Shown: piece by piece, positions 7,771-13,579 of the stretch | Layout of the letters: each line of letters starts with the position of its first letter | Position numbering within the stretch: the stretch's first letter is position 1 | IMG/VR virus record: IMGVR_UViG_2778261646_000020 | Source of the DNA: a virus | Taxonomy: Duplodnaviria; Heunggongvirae; Uroviricota; Caudoviricetes | Length of the DNA: 15,581 nt | Strand: one strand, 5' to 3' | Program-made: the position numbers and the translations under genes | Notes under the pieces: generated by a model | What the model was told of the DNA's origin: nothing | Database searches by the model: none | Seen by the model: the letters and a program-made list of their open reading frames with translations, nothing else

Positions 7771-8720
7771 CAGATCCTCGTAATGGTCGCGGCAGCAAGC
7801 TGGCTCACTGTGGGAGTGGTTTGTTGTACCGTTGTTCGTGCCTGATCAACCAACGTTGCGGCTTTATCAAACGTCGCTTCGGCGATGTCGCTGGTAATGT
7901 CGTCGAAAAGCGCCTGAGCATGGTCAACCAGTGTACTGGCGTCATTGGCGCAGTCCCGGATACCTGGCATGTTACCCAGTAAAGTTTTAATCTGCGCCGA
8001 CAACGCTTTTGGGAGTCCTGCCAGCGTTTGCAGATCCATTGGCTGTTTAAACAGGGTTTCGATGGCGTCGATTGTCTTTTTCAATGACGTAATTATCTTT
8101 TCACACTTTTCTTTTAACGCTTTGGCCTCTTTAATCATTGCTTTCACTTTTGCCACCGTTTTTTTAATATCTTCAATGGCTTGTGTCAGTTCATCCAGCA
8201 TCTCTTTGGCCTTACGCATACCTTCTTCGATGGCGTTTAATATCTGATCAAACCAGGACTCCACCTTGTCGGGAAAATCGCTCGCCTTTTCCTCGATGTT
8301 GGGCTCCTGGGTGGTAATCGCCGGAGGTAAAAGTGGATTTTTAGGATCGCCGGTGTACTCCTGGAGCGACATCGTTCCGTTTTGGGCAATCACATTGCCC
8401 CAGGGATCGGTGTGCTGGTGGGTGGCGGTTAGCTCCGTAATCACAAACCAGCCGCGATAATCGCCATTGCCAAATACCAGTGCCATCGCCTTGTGAGCAA
8501 GCATGGCTTCACGCAGTCGGTTCAGCTCTGTTGTGGGCTGGCAAAACTGGCTGTGCAGGGAAAATTCCAGCGCCAGCATATCCAGCTTATCGCCAATAAA
8601 CTGCACGCCGGGTTTGCCTTCTATACGGGCATGTGTGGCGTAATCCACGCCCATTGTGCTTTTAAAGCCGTCCCAGAATGTGACAACCTTCAATTCAATC
8701 TCTCCTAAAACGGCATACAT
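7767..8720 (-). CDS. gpU-like tail protein with ~170-aa C-terminal coiled-coil extension (occupies the position of Mu N, the DNA circularization protein)
   Basis: 317 aa. ATG 8720-8718 shares one base with the tape measure TGA. The N-terminal ~140 aa (MYAVLGEIELKVVTFWDG...GKPGVQFIGDKLDMLALEF...FGNGDYRGWFVITEL) resemble the gpU family. The C-terminal half is K/E-rich with heptad-like periodicity (EEGMRKAKEMLDELTQAIEDIKKTVAKVKAMIKEAKALKEKCEKIITSLKKTIDAIETL). Confidence 0.6.
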   Translation of the reverse strand: MYAVLGEIELKVVTFWDGFKSTMGVDYATHARIEGKPGVQFIGDKLDMLALEFSLHSQFCQPTTELNRLREAMLAHKAMALVFGNGDYRGWFVITELTATHQHTDPWGNVIAQNGTMSLQEYTGDPKNPLLPPAITTQEPNIEEKASDFPDKVESWFDQILNAIEEGMRKAKEMLDELTQAIEDIKKTVAKVKAMIKEAKALKEKCEKIITSLKKTIDAIETLFKQPMDLQTLAGLPKALSAQIKTLLGNMPGIRDCANDASTLVDHAQALFDDITSDIAEATFDKAATLVDQARTTVQQTTPTVSQLAAATITRIW

Positions 8721-11095
8721 CAGGCATACCCCCGGCGCTGTTGTTGCGCCATTACGTCGTTAATCATTCTTTCCAGTTCGCGTTTACTCATCGTCAACAC
8801 GTTCTGAATCTCTTTAGTGGTGTTTTGTCCGTTTCCCTGCACGGTAATCTGTGGCGAAAAATTTACCTGGACTTTTCCTGAGGAACGGGAGGGTAGCGTC
8901 GCCGGTTTGGTTACGGATTTACCAGGTAAAGAGGCAGATACGGGTTTGGCGGCTGTATTTTTTGCCGCTGGCGCCGATGACGGCGTAGCCGTTTTGCCGG
9001 ATGGCGCGAGTTGTTTGCCCACCGGCGGCGTTAAAATCGCACCGGCAACGCCTGGAACAACGGTCGCGGGGGAGACGGATGCGGTATTAGTCGTGCTTGT
9101 AATAGCTGTAGCCGATCCTTCTGTACTAATACCCATCGTGGTTTTTAGCCAGTCTGGGATGGCGTTTTTTACCTGATCAATAATGCCTTTCAGAGCGGGG
9201 AAGGCATTCATTATGCCGTCAACCAGACTGCCCAGAAGATTGCTGCCGAACTCGCTAAAACTTGCAGGCATCTCGACACCAAACCAATTCATCACACTGG
9301 AAAAGGCGCTATAGAACAACTCCAGCGGTGACCAGTCGAGAATCAACCGACAAATTCCTGCAATGCCGCCGTCAAAGGCCGTGGTGATACGTTGCCAGAT
9401 GGTCGAAAAGAACCTGGAGATAGGCTCCCAGTTGCGACAAATCAGATAAGCAGCGCCCGCAATCGCAGTGATGACCAGACCAATGGGATTCATCAATAAA
9501 ACCCTACCCAACCAGAAGACGGTCTGACCTACCTGTTTCAGTGCGCCAATCAGGCCATGACCAAGCAGTTGCATTAGCCATTTTGCGCTGCCACCCAATG
9601 ACTTAACCGCTGATAGCATCTTACTTGCCCCGCCTGTGAGCGCCAGACTTGCCTTGACTTTCAGGAAGATATCGACCAGACGAATAAACGGCGAGGTGAT
9701 GAGGTTCGCGCCCAGCTTTAAAACATTCAGCGCGCCGTTAAACAGCCAAACCGCCCCGACGATTTTCGCAATGTTTTGCACCAGCGCCGGATGTTCGCGT
9801 AGCCAGGCGCTGAACTGGCGAATAACCGGCGTAAGGCTTTGTGCCAGCTCGCCAATCGCCGGCATAAGCTGCAAACCAATGCTGAGCCATAAATCATTTA
9901 ATGCCAGCTGTAACGCTTTAGTCTGTTCAATGGGCGAGGCCATTTGCGCAGAAAAGTCAGCGTTAATCAGATTCTTGCTGGTGGCTTGCATGGCAGAGGC
10001 TTTTAACTGGCGATATTCCTCCATATTCGCCAGCATAGGTGCCAGGAATTCCACCGTTTGCGCATCGCCGAACATTTCGCCCAGATTAAATTGCGTTACC
10101 ATCAATTGCAGCGCATTGCTGCGAGCAGATAAATCTTCAATCTGCATAGTGCGTTTGAAGGTGTCGAGGATCGCCGGATTCATCTTCTCAAGCTGCATTT
10201 GTACGATATGAGTCATGGCTTCGCTAACACCCATACCGTTTTGCTGATGTTCAAGCAGAGAGCCTTGCAGATCGACGCCCTGGCTGGCGAACCAGCTATC
10301 GGTTTTTTTCGAAAAGGTGGTTTGCAGAAAGTGGTCGAAATTCTCCGCCGCCGCACTGGCGCTGGCCCCGTTTTTCATGGCGATCTGCATGGTGGCGCTC
10401 AGTTCAGCCATACCTTCCAGACCCTGAGCGCCGGTTTTACCTGCAAATTTCTCTATCCACTGCGTTTGTTCAGCAATGACAGGCCCACCGCTTTTGCTAA
10501 TGCCGTACATCATGTTTTGCGCGGCGTGGAAATTTTCCGGGGCAATATTCAGTCGATCATGGGTTGCGAGCGCGGCATTCGCCCATGTTTCAGCACTTTC
10601 GCGCGTGGCGGTGGCAGCTTTGGCGATCTCCGGCATATAACGGTTGAGATCCTGTATCGACGACAAATTGCCTTCGATCAGCGTTTGGGCTGCGTTCTGT
10701 AAGGTGGTCTGCTGCTGGTTAAAATCCATGCTCCAGTCGCGCAGATTAAGGCTGAGCGTCTCGCGGGTTGTAGCATTCATCCCACCTTTGGTCGCCATAT
10801 TGACCATGTTGTCCTGAAACTCATACGGCAACTTCCAGTCGGGGGCTTCAACATTGAATACTTTGCTAAATTGCCCGGCAAATGTTTGGGTTTTCTCCAT
10901 CAGATTAGCGCGGCTGCGGCTATTTTCCTCCAGGCGGAGAGCGGAATCGGCAAGCTGCTGCGTTAGTTTGATAACTGTCGCCTGCTGAGTAGAGAGAGTT
11001 AACAATGTTCTGGCGTTGAGTGAGCCGTAACGGGCTATTGCCTGCGTCAACGTCTCATTACGCGCCTGAAGCTGGGTAATAATATCGTTGGCCAA
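8720..11095 (-). CDS. Tail tape measure protein
   Basis: 791 aa, the largest ORF, located between chaperone and baseplate genes. Alpha-helical N-terminus, central hydrophobic/Gly-rich segments, Pro/Ser/Thr-rich C-terminus. The annotated start is a TTG at 11095-11093, with an in-frame TAA 4 codons upstream and no ATG or GTG in between, so the exact start is uncertain. Confidence 0.85.
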   Translation of the reverse strand: MANDIITQLQARNETLTQAIARYGSLNARTLLTLSTQQATVIKLTQQLADSALRLEENSRSRANLMEKTQTFAGQFSKVFNVEAPDWKLPYEFQDNMVNMATKGGMNATTRETLSLNLRDWSMDFNQQQTTLQNAAQTLIEGNLSSIQDLNRYMPEIAKAATATRESAETWANAALATHDRLNIAPENFHAAQNMMYGISKSGGPVIAEQTQWIEKFAGKTGAQGLEGMAELSATMQIAMKNGASASAAAENFDHFLQTTFSKKTDSWFASQGVDLQGSLLEHQQNGMGVSEAMTHIVQMQLEKMNPAILDTFKRTMQIEDLSARSNALQLMVTQFNLGEMFGDAQTVEFLAPMLANMEEYRQLKASAMQATSKNLINADFSAQMASPIEQTKALQLALNDLWLSIGLQLMPAIGELAQSLTPVIRQFSAWLREHPALVQNIAKIVGAVWLFNGALNVLKLGANLITSPFIRLVDIFLKVKASLALTGGASKMLSAVKSLGGSAKWLMQLLGHGLIGALKQVGQTVFWLGRVLLMNPIGLVITAIAGAAYLICRNWEPISRFFSTIWQRITTAFDGGIAGICRLILDWSPLELFYSAFSSVMNWFGVEMPASFSEFGSNLLGSLVDGIMNAFPALKGIIDQVKNAIPDWLKTTMGISTEGSATAITSTTNTASVSPATVVPGVAGAILTPPVGKQLAPSGKTATPSSAPAAKNTAAKPVSASLPGKSVTKPATLPSRSSGKVQVNFSPQITVQGNGQNTTKEIQNVLTMSKRELERMINDVMAQQQRRGYA

Positions 11096-11185: not shown

Positions 11186-11210
11186 ACTCGCAGACATCAG
11201 GTCTGCGAGT
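11186..11210 (-). other. Perfect 10-bp stem-loop between chaperone region and tape measure gene
   Basis: actcgcagac (11186-11195) / gtctgcgagt (11201-11210) with 5-nt loop atcag. Contains the stop codon of the alternate-frame chaperone extension. Not followed by a clear U-tract on the transcribed strand. Confidence 0.5.
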
Positions 11211-11284
11211 CATATTCGATTTTTATTTGGGCGCTGGCTTCATCCAGCCAGTTGCTAAAGTCATCGACGGTAAGGGCGTCTATC

Positions 11285-11602
11285 TCACTGGGTGGAAAGC
11301 GAAACCATCTCGCCAGTAACGCCATCGCTTGCCATAACAGTGGCGGATTCTGTAGCCACGCTAAGCATGGATTGAAATCGTTTCTGCAATGCCTGGTAAT
11401 CCAGCAAATCCATTTCAGCTAAATCTTCTGGCACCAGTCCGGTCATTGCCGCCATTAGCGGTTCATCCCACTCTTCAGGTTTTTCGCTGATCCGGCGCGC
11501 GTTGCGCATATCTTTTACTTTCAGGCGACGTAATTGCAGAGTGTTAATTACGTCTCCCGCCGCTGAAGTAAACGGGAACTGTAAGATATAATGTTCTTTC
11601 AT
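11285..11602 (-). CDS. Tail assembly chaperone, P2 gpE-like
   Basis: 105 aa. ATG 11602-11600 with AAGGA upstream. Motif GLVPEDLAEMDLLDYQALQKRF resembles the conserved core of gpE-family tail assembly proteins. Located between tube and tape measure genes. Confidence 0.75.
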   Translation of the reverse strand: MKEHYILQFPFTSAAGDVINTLQLRRLKVKDMRNARRISEKPEEWDEPLMAAMTGLVPEDLAEMDLLDYQALQKRFQSMLSVATESATVMASDGVTGEMVSLSTQ

Positions 11603-11652: not shown

Positions 11653-12177
11653 TTAGCCACCGATGTTATTGCGATAGGTACTTAATTGATCCACACCATT
11701 AACCCGGAAAATATTGGCCATATAATCAAGTTCAAGCAGCGTTTCACCATCAACTACTTGTTTAATATAAGTGCAACCAAAGGCGCTGCTGAATTCCGGG
11801 TTTTCATTCTGTTTAAATGTGCCCAGTGGATTCTTTTTAAACATCACGGTTAAATGTGTCACTAGCGCTAATTGATTCGCTTTCCCCTGGGAGTTATAGC
11901 AATCAATACTGGAGCGGCACTGTAATGCAACCGCCTGCCACGGGTTTGCCGTTTTACGCATTACGTCCTGATAGAAGGAGTTCCATTTAATTTCGCCCTC
12001 CAGTTTATCGAAACCCGCCGGGAGTTCGATTTTACCCACCATGCCCAGTGCTTTATGCTCCTGCATAATTAAACTGACATCCGGCAATTTAATTTCGGTT
12101 GCACGACCTAAAAGGTTATTACCATCGAGATAAATATTGGCGTTGGTAATACGGTTAATTTGAATTTTTCCAGCCAT
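11653..12177 (-). CDS. Tail tube protein (P2 FII / Mu M-like)
   Basis: 174 aa. ATG 12177-12175 shares one base with the sheath stop. Size and position immediately downstream of the sheath gene; N-terminus MAGKIQINRITNANIYLDGNNLLG is typical of contractile-tail tube proteins. Confidence 0.85.
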   Translation of the reverse strand: MAGKIQINRITNANIYLDGNNLLGRATEIKLPDVSLIMQEHKALGMVGKIELPAGFDKLEGEIKWNSFYQDVMRKTANPWQAVALQCRSSIDCYNSQGKANQLALVTHLTVMFKKNPLGTFKQNENPEFSSAFGCTYIKQVVDGETLLELDYMANIFRVNGVDQLSTYRNNIGG

Positions 12178-13579
12178 TAGCTATTGCTCTCCAGAGAGAC
12201 TAAATATTCAGAAGTAATTTCAGTTTCAAACGTCAGACGTTCCAGCGGCGGCGGCGGGGTGAATTTATAGCTCAGCAATAAATGCCCAGCGCTGAGTTCA
12301 GTCGGTGAATTTCGCGCCGGATCGTACCAGCATTCAAAGCCAAGCAGTGCGCCGTCGGCAATCAGCTTACGGCCCCAGGTATTTACCGATTCGGTCAGGG
12401 CATCAATCAGCGCCTGATTAATCGGCATATCAATATACTGCTGACTGAAATAACGGATTGACTCATTAATTACATCGCCTGTCCGGCGGACGTTTTCAAA
12501 GTTACGCATATGGGTCACGGTAGGCCACGCTGCAGTGCGGTTGCCCCACAAGCGCAGACCAGAGCCGTAACTATTGAAAATAGTGGTAATGCCGTTTTCG
12601 TTTAGCTGATTCACTTCGCTTTGTGGATCATCAATCATTGCGGAAAGCGAACGTTCAATACCGGTAATACCCTGAATTTCTTGGTTTGAGTTGCTCCACC
12701 AGAAACCTTTTTCGAGGTCTACTTTGGCACGTAGCCCGGCAGCGCGCGAAGAGAGCGGTTCGAGAACTTCTTGGTTAGTGATGCCATCGTAAACTTTGAC
12801 GTGTGGGTAACATAAACGCGCACGATCAGAGCTGGTGTTGAAGTTGATAGCCCCTTGCGAACCGCGTCCTGCCAATACCTGCTGGAATGTCGTCCCAATC
12901 GGGGCATCAATGTAGGTAATCGCACCAAGTTTTTCCGCTTGTGCAATCAGCTCTGTAGTTACTGATTTTTGCGTACAGAACACGGGAGCAAGCAGGATTT
13001 TGGCGTAGAAACCATACAGGTTATAGGTGTCCTGTAGCAGTTTCATCCCCGTGCGATCGCCTGCGGTATTAACGGCACCGATAATATCGGCTGCGGTGAC
13101 CTTTGTAGGGTCGCACCAGGAGGAATGTCGGCTCCTGTACGGGTAATTATGCCTGTTTGTTCATCTACGCTAAATGCTGCGGTGTTATAGGTTGATGAAT
13201 TTGATGAAGAGGGCTTTAGAACCACGTTACGCACATTGCGGTGAGTGAGTTTCGCCTGGTTGTTAGCATCAAAAGTGATACTTTCATTGCTGATGTTGGA
13301 GCCATGTTTTGCCGGATCCAGCACGTTAATCACCACCACCGTACCGGCACCGTGGTCATAAATCGCCTTCAGTGCCTGTGGGATCGTAAAGTTAGTCTGA
13401 GTCGAACCAAACTGCGCAGCATCGCTTTCAGAAAGGCATAATGTTGGTTTATTTACCGGACCACAGGGGGCCGTACCGATTAAAGCGATGACGGCGGATT
13501 TTACCGCTTTAACCGGACGCGGGCCGGTTTCAATTTCAATGGTTTCTACACCGTGCAGATAATTAGCTGCCATGTACAA
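12177..13579 (-). pseudogene. Tail sheath gene interrupted by a frameshift (two ORF fragments 13043..13579 and 12177..13046)
   Basis: N-terminal fragment (MYMAANYLHGVETIEIETGPRPVKAVKSAVIALIG...) matches the sheath N-terminus. The downstream frame, read upstream of its first Met, gives ...KVTAADIIGAVNTAGDRTGMKLLQDTYNLYGFY..., which continues the sheath. The two frames meet near 13105-13125, consistent with a 1-nt deletion (or 2-nt insertion) relative to an intact gene. Confidence 0.75.

What the first reader, a model, noticed from the sequence alone, without database searches (positions are those of the whole stretch)
11197..11418. Alternate-frame extension of the gpE-like chaperone suggests an E/E'-type programmed frameshift, but in the +1 (or -2) frame
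Tail assembly chaperone genes upstream of tape measure genes commonly produce a second, extended product by programmed frameshifting (P2 E/E', lambda G/GT). Here the +1 frame is open from 11418 through the E stop and continues 30 codons beyond it (SEIDALTVDDFSNWLDEASAQIKIEYDSQT) to a TGA at 11199-11197, inside the loop of a perfect 10-bp hairpin. The canonical -1 frame closes 2 codons after the E stop. No obvious XXXYYYZ slippery heptamer was found.
Basis: partly seen in the sequence, partly recalled or inferred. Interest (0 to 1): 0.5.

Follow-up and report, generated by a model that had tools for sequence, protein, structure and literature searches.

The report
Conserved +1 frameshift in tail chaperone
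The phage tail-assembly chaperone gene in this window almost certainly makes a second, longer protein when a few ribosomes slip one base forward on a conserved UUU_C site; this is the known two-product trick of phage tail genes, done in an unusual direction and left out of the genome annotations examined.

Summary
The +1/-2 frame is open from 11418 to a TGA at 11199-11197, that stop sits in the loop of a perfect 10-bp hairpin, the -1 frame closes at once, and there is no X_XXY_YYZ heptamer.

The alternate frame encodes a P2 E'-like domain (MALLARWFRFPPSEID...). It lies in the +1 frame in 139 of 144 unique related loci, from E. coli, Salmonella, Burkholderia BcepMu, Pseudomonas, Ralstonia and metagenomes.

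Purifying selection switches from frame 0 to frame +1 at codon 76, about 29 codons before the chaperone stop:
- Codons 1-76: pN/pS 0.17 in frame 0 and 1.43 in frame +1.
- After codon 76: about 1.1-1.5 in frame 0 and 0.11-0.26 in frame +1.

The only motif conserved in the permitted interval is an in-frame TTT followed by C (window 11377-11374), present in 138 of 139 loci. High-GC relatives keep TTT here although they otherwise use TTC.

Best model: tRNA-Phe slips +1 from UUU to UUC, giving a 134-aa E+E'-like protein (76 + 58 aa) beside the 105-aa product.

This is a new variant of a known kind. No experiment supports it yet, and no database record examined annotates it.

The parts
11285..11602 (-). 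Frame-0 tail assembly chaperone ORF (105 aa, the G/E-like short product). Only codons 1-80 are under protein-level constraint.
   Evidence: PF10109 Phage_TAC_7, E=4e-18, residues 6-80. pN/pS is 0.17 for codons 1-76 and 1.1-1.5 for the last 29 codons. RefSeq names it 'phage tail assembly protein'.
11374..11380 (-). Proposed +1 shift cassette CGA_TTT_C. Phe76 codon TTT (11377-11375) sits in the P site and slips to TTC (11376-11374). CGA (11380-11378) is the preceding codon.
   Evidence: In-frame TTT_C is present in 138 of 139 unique +1-type loci inside the permitted interval, bracketed to 8 nt on the 5' side and 18 nt on the 3' side. TTT is kept in high-GC relatives whose flanking ORFs use TTC 96:9. 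CGA precedes TTT in 86 of 139 loci although it makes up 7% of Arg codons in the flanks. It is one of only two TTT codons in the gene and the only one followed by a pyrimidine.
11197..11373 (-). +1-frame segment read after the shift: 58 codons (NPCLAWLQNPPLLWQAMALLARWFRFPPSEIDALTVDDFSNWLDEASAQIKIEYDSQT) plus TGA. Together with codons 1-76 it gives a predicted 134-aa E+E'-like fusion.
   Evidence: Translation. pN/pS in frame +1 is 0.26 (TTT_C to ATG 11325), 0.11 (ATG to the frame-0 stop) and 0.20 (after the stop). It matches PHROG 8286 at E=1e-20.
11224..11325 (-). E'-like domain (MALLARWFRFPPSEIDALTVDDFSNWLDEASAQI), the presumed tube-binding 'T' part.
   Evidence: PF06528 Phage_P2_GpE, E=0.0023-0.0029, 17.5-17.8 bits, below the cut-off of 23. 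BLASTP and HMM alignment to P2 E' residues 104-135.
11186..11210 (-). Perfect 10-bp hairpin with the +1-frame stop codon in its 5-nt loop.
   Evidence: Sequence. It folds in almost all relatives, with compensatory arm changes (GCAGAC/GUCUGC, GCAGG/CCUGC, GCAGGCG/CGCCUGC) and the stop (UGA/UAA/UAG) always in the loop. It does not fit the terminator consensus.
8720..11095 (-). Tape measure protein gene downstream (791 aa), the presumed client of the chaperone.
   Evidence: PF10145, E=1e-10. RefSeq names it 'phage tail tape measure protein'.
11653..12177 (-). Tail tube gene upstream (174 aa), the presumed partner of the E' domain.
   Evidence: PF04985 Phage_tube, E=4e-56.

Best explanation
The chaperone gene between the tail tube and tape measure genes makes two proteins from one start codon. 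Most ribosomes read frame 0 and make the 105-aa chaperone. Its functional part is the first ~80 residues; its last ~25-29 residues are an unconstrained by-product of the overlap.

A minority of ribosomes, with peptidyl-tRNA-Phe (anticodon GAA) on the UUU codon of Phe76 (11377-11375), slip one base forward onto UUC (11376-11374). This replaces a G:U wobble with a G:C pair. They then read AAU... in the +1 frame to the TGA at 11199-11197. The result is a 134-aa protein: the chaperone domain, a ~16-aa linker and an E'-like domain.

By analogy with lambda gpG/gpGT and P2 E/E+E', the shared N-terminal domain would coat the tape measure protein and the rare C-terminal domain would recruit the tube protein. 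The frameshift efficiency would set the ratio of the two products.

Shown here: the frame architecture, homology of both domains, the switch of selection between frames, and conservation of UUU_C. Inferred: that the ribosome rather than another process makes the switch, that the direction is +1 rather than -2, the efficiency, and the functions of the two products.
For: 1. Domain order. The fusion has PF10109 at residues 6-78 and PF06528 at 93-126. P2 E+E' has PF10109 at 7-85 and PF06528 at 104-139. The E' motif aligns directly with P2.

2. Frame relation. The E' domain is in the +1 frame in 139 of 144 unique loci. These include the isolated phages BcepMu, phiE255, PhiKM, KP12, Komp_PAO1_1 and Bise.

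3. Selection switch. Over 28 unique relatives, codons 1-76 give pN/pS 0.17 in frame 0 and 1.43 in frame +1. From TTT_C to ATG 11325 the values are 1.09 and 0.26. From that ATG to the frame-0 stop they are 1.48 and 0.11.

4. Bracketing. The +1-frame stops in relatives lie as close as 8 nt upstream of TTT, and the 3' limit of the permitted interval (frame-0 stop or E'-domain start) as close as 18 nt downstream of it.

5. Slip motif. In-frame TTT_C is present in 138 of 139 loci, and the exception has CTT_C, which is also +1-compatible. High-GC relatives keep TTT although their flanking ORFs use TTC 96:9.

6. Independent start excluded. The +1 frame has no ATG, GTG or TTG between its upstream stop and ATG 11325, yet the 16 codons before that ATG are constrained.

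7. Literature. [quoted passage not shown] 2016, PMC5009743). UUU in the P site is among the most shift-prone codons in vitro (bioRxiv 10.1101/2025.10.02.679949). Both forward and backward tail-chaperone frameshift sites occur in the SEA-PHAGES annotations: 350 forward and 2368 backward candidate sites (PMC10885494).
Against: - There is no direct evidence: no proteomics, ribosome profiling or reporter data.
- No recognised stimulator is conserved. The frame-0 A-site codon is not rare (CAA/CAG, CGC, CGG, CTG). No Shine-Dalgarno-like sequence is common to the clades. Downstream RNA folding is no better than shuffled sequence in 7 of 8 lineages.
- Phe76 is a conserved residue of the chaperone domain, so part of the TTT conservation reflects the amino acid. 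The codon-choice argument rests mainly on the high-GC lineages.
- The PF06528 match is below Pfam's gathering score.
- This particular prophage copy is defective, with a 28-nt deletion in the sheath gene, so the product may have no role in this strain.
Confidence: 0.72

Rival explanations
1. The E'-like peptide is made as a separate small protein that starts at the ATG at 11325 (42 aa, MALLARWF...). There is no frameshift.
For: The ATG at 11325 is invariant in the 28 closest unique relatives. The ORF listing reports a 42-aa ORF at 11325..11197. Other phage records annotate such small ORFs separately: phiE255 gp16, Komp_PAO1_1 CDS0016 and BcepMu gp42. PHROG 8286 is a family of ~54-aa proteins.
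Against: The 16 +1-frame codons upstream of this ATG are under purifying selection (pN/pS 0.26, against 1.09 in frame 0). LWQA shows only synonymous changes. The +1 frame has no start codon upstream of that ATG. The Met is absent in PhiKM, KP12, BcepMu, Ralstonia and Pseudomonas relatives (G, V, K or A at that position), which still keep the frame and the upstream Trp. No Shine-Dalgarno sequence precedes the ATG.
Confidence: 0.08
2. It is a -2 ribosomal frameshift like that of phage Mu gp41, reaching the same frame by slipping back two bases.
For: The +1 and -2 frames are the same frame. Mu, whose chaperone weakly matches the same Pfam family, uses -2.
Against: The putative Mu site is a run of five G (CGG_GGG_CGA), inferred from the Mu sequence because Xu et al. 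2004 was not held. Nothing comparable exists in the permitted interval here. No P-site or A-site codon in 11403-11362 can re-pair two bases upstream, and the only half-match (AAA to AGA) is not conserved, being ACC, GAC or GAG in relatives. The chaperone HMM built here does not detect Mu gp41.
Confidence: 0.05
3. The switch of frame is made in the mRNA, by RNA polymerase slippage or editing, or the gene is a decaying pseudogene of an ancestral in-frame fusion.
For: Rare database proteins are in-frame fusions of the two parts (P0001-P0004 and P0040, 125-134 aa). Locus L099 has an indel that puts half of E' in frame 0.
Against: Transcriptional slippage needs long homopolymer runs, and the interval has none longer than three. 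The in-frame fusions are nearly all single-sequence clusters seen on one or two contigs, with indels at different places, whereas the two-frame form stands for hundreds of sequences. The two-frame arrangement is conserved in 139 unique loci, including isolated, propagated phages, with strong purifying selection on both parts.
Confidence: 0.03
4. The open alternate frame is a coincidence with no coding function.
For: A 73-codon open stretch has about a 3% chance in random sequence.
Against: Conserved peptide, pN/pS about 0.2, a Pfam/PHROG match and homology to P2 E'.
Confidence: 0.01

Closest known systems
Phage P2 E / E+E' tail assembly chaperone pair (-1 frameshift at T_TTT_TTG)
   Same: Same gene position, between the tube (FII-like) and tape measure (T-like) genes. 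Same two Pfam domains in the same order and spacing (PF10109 then PF06528; fusion 134 vs 142 aa). The shift occurs at the end of the PF10109 domain, within about 3 aligned codons of the P2 site. No downstream RNA structure is needed in P2 either (PMC3091744).
   Different: The direction is +1, not -1. The slip motif is a single codon plus one base (UUU_C) rather than a tandem-slippage heptamer. The E' frame ends 101 nt before the tape measure start instead of overlapping it. The PF06528 match is below threshold.
Phage Mu gp41 (-2 frameshift)
   Same: A tail chaperone whose extension lies in the +1/-2 frame. It has a weak PF10109 match, just below the cut-off (24.7 vs 25 bits). It is a documented precedent for a non -1 shift at this gene.
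   Different: The putative Mu site is a G5 run (CGG_GGG_CGA). The Mu extension is unrelated to E' (no PF06528 or E' HMM hit). Mu gp41 belongs to PF23746.
Lambda gpG / gpGT
   Same: The functional model: an abundant short chaperone plus a rare frameshift-extended form. The shared part binds the tape measure protein, the extension binds the tube protein, and the ratio is set by frameshift efficiency (about 30:1) (PMC5009743).
   Different: No sequence similarity was found. Lambda uses -1 on G_GGA_AAG and is a siphovirus.
UUU_Y +1 shift-prone sites (E. coli UUU_Ynn; Yersinia YopN-TyeA; influenza A PA-X UCC_UUU_CGU)
   Same: A P-site tRNA-Phe slips from UUU to UUY. The BcepMu-like relatives carry UCC_UUU_CGC or GCC_UUU_CGC, nearly the influenza cassette.
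   Different: Those cases concern other genes. Here no rare or stop codon follows the site.
BcepMu gp41/gp42/gp43 as annotated in GenBank
   Same: It is the homologous locus. BcepMu gp41 is the chaperone and gp42 is the +1-frame E'-like ORF.
   Different: The record treats gp42 as a separately initiated 'G' protein that frameshifts into gp43. The comparative data here favour gp41 shifting +1 into the gp42 frame at UCC_UUU_CGC.

Membership tests
P2 E/E+E' tail chaperone system | Gene lies between the tail tube and tape measure genes of a contractile tail module | tested here: met
   Tube (PF04985) at 12177..11653, chaperone at 11602..11285 and tape measure (PF10145) at 11095..8720; sheath, gpU, gpD, V, W, J and I homologues surround them.
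P2 E/E+E' tail chaperone system | N-terminal domain of family PF10109 (Phage_TAC_7) | tested here: met
   E=4e-18, 65.7 bits against a cut-off of 25. P2 E itself scores 47.5 bits.
P2 E/E+E' tail chaperone system | C-terminal extension of family PF06528 (Phage_P2_GpE), encoded in an overlapping frame | tested here: inconclusive
   17.5-17.8 bits, E=0.002-0.003, below the cut-off of 23. Direct alignment to P2 E' residues 104-133 is supportive (BLASTP E=7e-4, family HMM E=6e-8, both against a single sequence).
P2 E/E+E' tail chaperone system | -1 frameshift on a T_TTT_TTG (or X_XXY_YYZ) heptamer | tested here: not met
   The extension is in the +1 frame, the -1 frame closes after 2 codons, and the gene has no heptamer. 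Four relatives of the same family do use -1 (G_GGA_AAG or A_AAG_GGA).
Mu gp41 -2 frameshift | Slippage on a run of G (CGG_GGG_CGA; putative site read from the Mu sequence) and a PF23746 chaperone | tested here: not met
   There is no G run, no PF23746 match, and the family HMM does not hit Mu.
+1 programmed ribosomal frameshift at UUU_Y | In-frame UUU followed by a pyrimidine, placed where the frame-0 and +1 open frames overlap | tested here: met
   TTT_C at 11377-11374, and 138 of 139 unique relatives have it at the homologous codon.
+1 programmed ribosomal frameshift at UUU_Y | Protein-level selection passes from frame 0 to frame +1 at the site | tested here: met
   pN/pS changes from 0.17 (frame 0) and 1.43 (+1) to 1.09 and 0.26 across the site.
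+1 programmed ribosomal frameshift at UUU_Y | A stimulator: slow A-site codon, upstream Shine-Dalgarno-like sequence or downstream structure | tested here: not met
   The A-site codons are common ones. No Shine-Dalgarno-like sequence is shared. Folding z-scores range from -1.1 to +0.25 in 7 of 8 lineages. The rare CGA codon before UUU is a possible stimulator, present in 86 of 139 loci.
+1 programmed ribosomal frameshift at UUU_Y | A trans-frame protein with the predicted junction is detected | not testable with these tools
   This needs mass spectrometry or a reporter assay.

The most novel reading that the evidence does not exclude
A large clade of P2/BcepMu-type contractile-tail modules in Proteobacteria, including elements in about one in seven complete E. 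coli genomes, has switched the ancestral tail-chaperone frameshift from -1 to +1. It keeps the shift within about 3 codons of the same place in the protein. It uses a minimal cassette, (CGA)_UUU_C, with no classical stimulator. The rare, inosine-decoded CGA codon just upstream could act as a new E-site or P-site enhancer of +1 slippage.
Probability: 0.25. Interest if true: 0.6.

Novelty: new variant of a known kind. Interest (0 to 1): 0.42.

Why it matters
- **Annotation gap.** The long chaperone form is presumably essential, as in lambda and P2. It is missing from the annotation of every RefSeq and GenBank record examined. Relatives of this region occur in 769 of 5,426 complete E. coli genomes and in isolated phages such as BcepMu and PhiKM. 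The BcepMu record carries a different, probably wrong, frameshift model.
- **Evolution of recoding.** One protein family (PF10109 + PF06528) uses -1 in some members and +1 in others, at nearly the same point in the protein. That makes it a natural system for asking how recoding direction evolves.
- **Mechanism.** It offers a compact candidate cassette for +1 frameshifting without a stop or hungry codon, conserved from E. coli to Burkholderia and easy to test in reporters.
- **Applications.** For engineered phages and tailocins built on these tail modules, knowing about the second product matters.

Tried and rejected
- **Classic slip motifs.** A search for X_XXY_YYZ heptamers and long homopolymer runs in the chaperone ORF found none in the permitted interval.
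- **Downstream RNA stimulator.**
  - RNAalifold on the 28 relatives gave only a weak GU-rich stem.
  - Single-sequence folds of 8 divergent lineages had z-scores from -1.1 to +0.25, except phage Bise at -2.9. I rejected this as a conserved feature.
- **Upstream Shine-Dalgarno-like stimulator.** Only the Pseudomonas subgroup has one (GAGGUG_UUU). It is not general.
- **Terminator reading of the hairpin.** The hairpin does not fit the consensus scan.
- **Other +1 sites.** CTT_A at 11365-11362 sits where selection switches, but it re-pairs poorly and is absent from PhiKM-like and other clades.
- **-2 sites.** No re-pairing is possible, and Mu's putative G-run is absent.
- **Independent initiation at ATG 11325.** Rejected because of selection upstream of the ATG and loss of the Met in other clades.
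- **Database searches without result.** NCBIfam gave no hit to the fusion or the E' part. PDB sequences gave nothing meaningful.
- **Natural in-frame fusions as 'Rosetta stone' evidence.** Only rare variants with indels at different places were found, nearly all single-sequence clusters.
- **Literature.**
  - Christie et al. 2002 (PMC135442) and Xu et al. 2004 are not held.
  - Searches for a prior description of a +1 shift in BcepMu- or P2-type chaperones found none.
  - Absence from this library is not proof of novelty.

Full report
**1. What is in the window**

The window carries a contractile-tail module on the minus strand. In order it holds:
- an SLT-domain protein and a Gp37-family protein;
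- the tail sheath, here split into two ORFs;
- the tail tube (12177..11653, PF04985);
- a 105-aa chaperone (11602..11285, PF10109 Phage_TAC_7, E=4e-18);
- the tape measure protein (11095..8720);
- homologues of gpU, gpX, gpD, V, W, J and I, a tail fibre and a fibre-assembly protein.

An RlaP gene lies on the other strand. RefSeq records with the identical sequence call the 105-aa ORF 'phage tail assembly protein'. They annotate nothing between it and the tape measure gene, and a locus-tag number is skipped there.

**2. Check of the observation**

- The +1/-2 frame is closed by TAG at 11421-11419 and then open from 11418 to TGA at 11199-11197. It runs 30 codons past the chaperone stop.
- The -1 frame ends two codons after the chaperone stop.
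- The TGA lies in the 5-nt loop of a perfect 10-bp hairpin (11210-11186).
- There is no X_XXY_YYZ heptamer.

**3. The alternate frame is coding and homologous to P2 E'**

- The +1-frame translation matches Pfam PF06528 'Phage P2 GpE' from Met (MALLARWFRFPPSEIDALTVDDFSNWLDEASAQI). The score is E=0.002 and 17.8 bits, below the cut-off of 23.
- It matches PHROG 8286, a family of small phage ORFs of unknown function, at E=1e-20.
- It aligns with the corresponding stretch of P2 E+E' (MADVAVIFHWPPSELYPMSLTELITWREKA).
- P2 E+E' has PF10109 at 7-85 and PF06528 at 104-139. The fusion predicted here has PF10109 at 6-78 and PF06528 at 93-126.

**4. Conservation**

I fetched 200 related loci from complete E. 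coli genomes, one genome per species of GTDB, IMG/VR contigs and GenBank phages. HMMs for the chaperone domain and the E' domain located both parts in each locus.
- Of 144 unique loci, the E' domain is in the +1 frame in 139 and in the -1 frame in 4.
- One locus (L099) has an indel that puts half of E' in frame 0.
- The +1 group includes the window's own family (E. coli, Salmonella, Superficieibacter, Dryocola, Phytobacter, Lelliottia) and PhiKM/KP12-like E. coli and Klebsiella phages.
- It also includes Burkholderia BcepMu and phiE255, Pseudomonas Komp_PAO1_1 and Bise, and a Ralstonia phage.
- The -1 group (for example Pasteurella phage AFS-2018a) carries classic heptamers: A_AAG_GGA or G_GGA_AAG.

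**5. Where the frame changes**

I computed substitutions over the 28 unique close relatives.

| Segment | pN/pS frame 0 | pN/pS frame +1 |
|---|---|---|
| Codons 1-76 | 0.17 | 1.43 |
| TTT_C to ATG 11325 | 1.09 | 0.26 |
| ATG 11325 to frame-0 stop | 1.48 | 0.11 |
| After the frame-0 stop | 1.59 | 0.20 |

(All values; the per-codon table is.)

- The last ~25-29 residues of the '105-aa protein' therefore evolve as if not selected, and the +1 frame is selected from about 11373 on.
- The selected part includes 16 codons upstream of the only in-frame start codon (ATG 11325). The residues LWQA just before it show synonymous changes only. This excludes separate initiation as the main explanation.
- In addition, that Met is not conserved in PhiKM, BcepMu, Ralstonia or Pseudomonas relatives.
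- A Trp 3-6 codons after the proposed site is conserved in the +1 frame in most clades.
- Stop codons bracket the event. In relatives the +1 frame is closed as near as 8 nt upstream of the Phe76 codon. The 3' limit of the permitted interval (frame-0 stop or E'-domain start) lies as near as 18 nt downstream of it.

**6. The slip site**

Inside that bracket the only conserved nucleotides are an in-frame TTT followed by C (window 11377-11374).
- It is found in 138 of 139 unique +1-type loci. The exception (L195) has CTT_C, on which tRNA-Leu(GAG) could also re-pair +1.
- In the high-GC relatives the flanking long ORFs use TTC 96 times and TTT 9 times, yet this Phe is always TTT. That argues for selection on the nucleotides and not only on the residue.
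- In the -1-type relatives that keep the Phe (L188, L191, L193), TTT is followed by A; the Pasteurella phage has Leu there.
- The preceding codon is CGA in 86 of 139 loci, although CGA is 7% of Arg codons in the flanks of the lower-GC loci.
- Other clades have UCC/GCC_UUU_CGC, GUG_UUU_CGG or UGG_UUU_CGY.
- tRNA-Phe (anticodon GAA, established knowledge) pairs with UUU through a G:U wobble and with UUC through G:C, so the +1 slip improves pairing.
[quoted passage not shown] It says this appears to be the YopN-TyeA site, and that influenza PA-X uses UCC_UUU_CGU (PMC5009743).
- A -2 shift finds no possible re-pairing in the interval. Mu's putative G-run site, CGG_GGG_CGA (read from the Mu sequence, since Xu et al. 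2004 was not held), has no counterpart.
- The predicted product is M1-F76 plus 58 residues, 134 aa in all.

**7. Stimulators**

None of the usual ones is conserved.
- The frame-0 A-site codons are common ones.
- A Shine-Dalgarno-like sequence is present in only one subgroup.
- Downstream folding is no better than shuffled sequence in 7 of 8 lineages.

A low intrinsic efficiency would suit a G:GT-like ratio, which is about 30:1 in lambda and 2-3 times more frameshifting in P2. The efficiency here is unknown.

**8. Comparison with what is known**

- Frameshift-extended tail chaperones are well known. Lambda G/GT and P2 E/E+E' use -1, Mu uses -2, and an archaeal myovirus probably uses +1.
- In SEA-PHAGES annotations, 350 forward and 2368 backward candidate slip sites were retained for tail chaperone genes.
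- UUU_Y as a +1 site is also known.
- What appears undescribed is that a large clade of the P2 E family uses +1 at UUU_C, within about 3 aligned codons of where P2 shifts -1.
- No record examined annotates the fusion.
- BcepMu's record proposes a different scheme, gp42 slipping into gp43.
- My literature searches found no description, but the two key papers, Xu 2004 and Christie 2002, were not available.
- I therefore class this as a new variant of a known kind, of moderate interest.

**9. Caveats**

- Everything is comparative. The ribosomal nature, direction and efficiency of the shift, and the roles of the two products, are inferred.
- The copy in this window sits in a defective element. 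Its sheath gene has a 28-nt deletion relative to strain AR_0013.

Noticed in passing
window 13579..12177 (minus strand); deletion point about 13121-13111: The tail sheath gene is split into two ORFs (178 aa and 289 aa). Compared with E. coli AR_0013 (L001, a single 474-aa sheath CDS), the window lacks 28 nt between two copies of an 11-nt direct repeat. Over the stretch compared, the two sequences otherwise differ at a single base. This copy of the element is therefore probably defective.
   Followed up: partly
window 11210..11186 (minus strand), and the small second hairpin about 11178-11164: The hairpin that holds the E'-frame stop codon in its loop is conserved in relatives. Its arms show compensatory changes, and a stop (UGA, UAA or UAG) is always in the loop. 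It lacks a T-run and fails the terminator scan. Its role (mRNA stability, pausing, or control of tape measure translation) is unknown.
   Followed up: partly
L038/L209 (BcepMu 24602-25363) and L039 (phiE255): GenBank and RefSeq annotate BcepMu gp42 as a separately initiated 'lambda G-like' ORF that slips into gp43. The comparative data suggest instead that gp41 shifts +1 into the gp42 frame at UCC_UUU_CGC. In phiE255 and vB_E274 the 'gp43' region is annotated on the opposite strand.
   Followed up: partly
L001, L002 and L211 (RefSeq E. coli records): The locus-tag numbering skips one number between the chaperone and tape measure genes (for example RS04425 then RS04435). A gene call at the E' ORF may have been made and later dropped by the annotation pipeline.
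   Followed up: no
L099:1116-1380; proteins P0001-P0005, P0027, P0040: There are rare variants with indels or deletions that fuse the chaperone and E' parts in one frame at various points. Examples are P0001 (134 aa, switch at ...TESS|LLWQAM) and P0005 (a deletion joining MDLL to ARWF). Nearly all are single-sequence clusters and may be sequencing errors or natural mutants.
   Followed up: partly
whole window; IMG/VR loci L009-L031: Many related IMG/VR contigs are only 13-18 kb, and the window holds tail genes, an SLT-domain protein and a Gp37-family protein but no head genes. The Salmonella counterpart is cross-referenced to LT2 genes STM4212/STM4213. The element may be a tail-only remnant or a tailocin-like cluster rather than a full prophage.
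   Followed up: no
L195 (IMG/VR 3300003320_000475): This is the single +1-type relative without TTT_C. It has CTT_C (AAA CTT CAG / CTT CTT CGG) at the equivalent place, a possible alternative +1 slip codon resembling the CUU of prfB.
   Followed up: no
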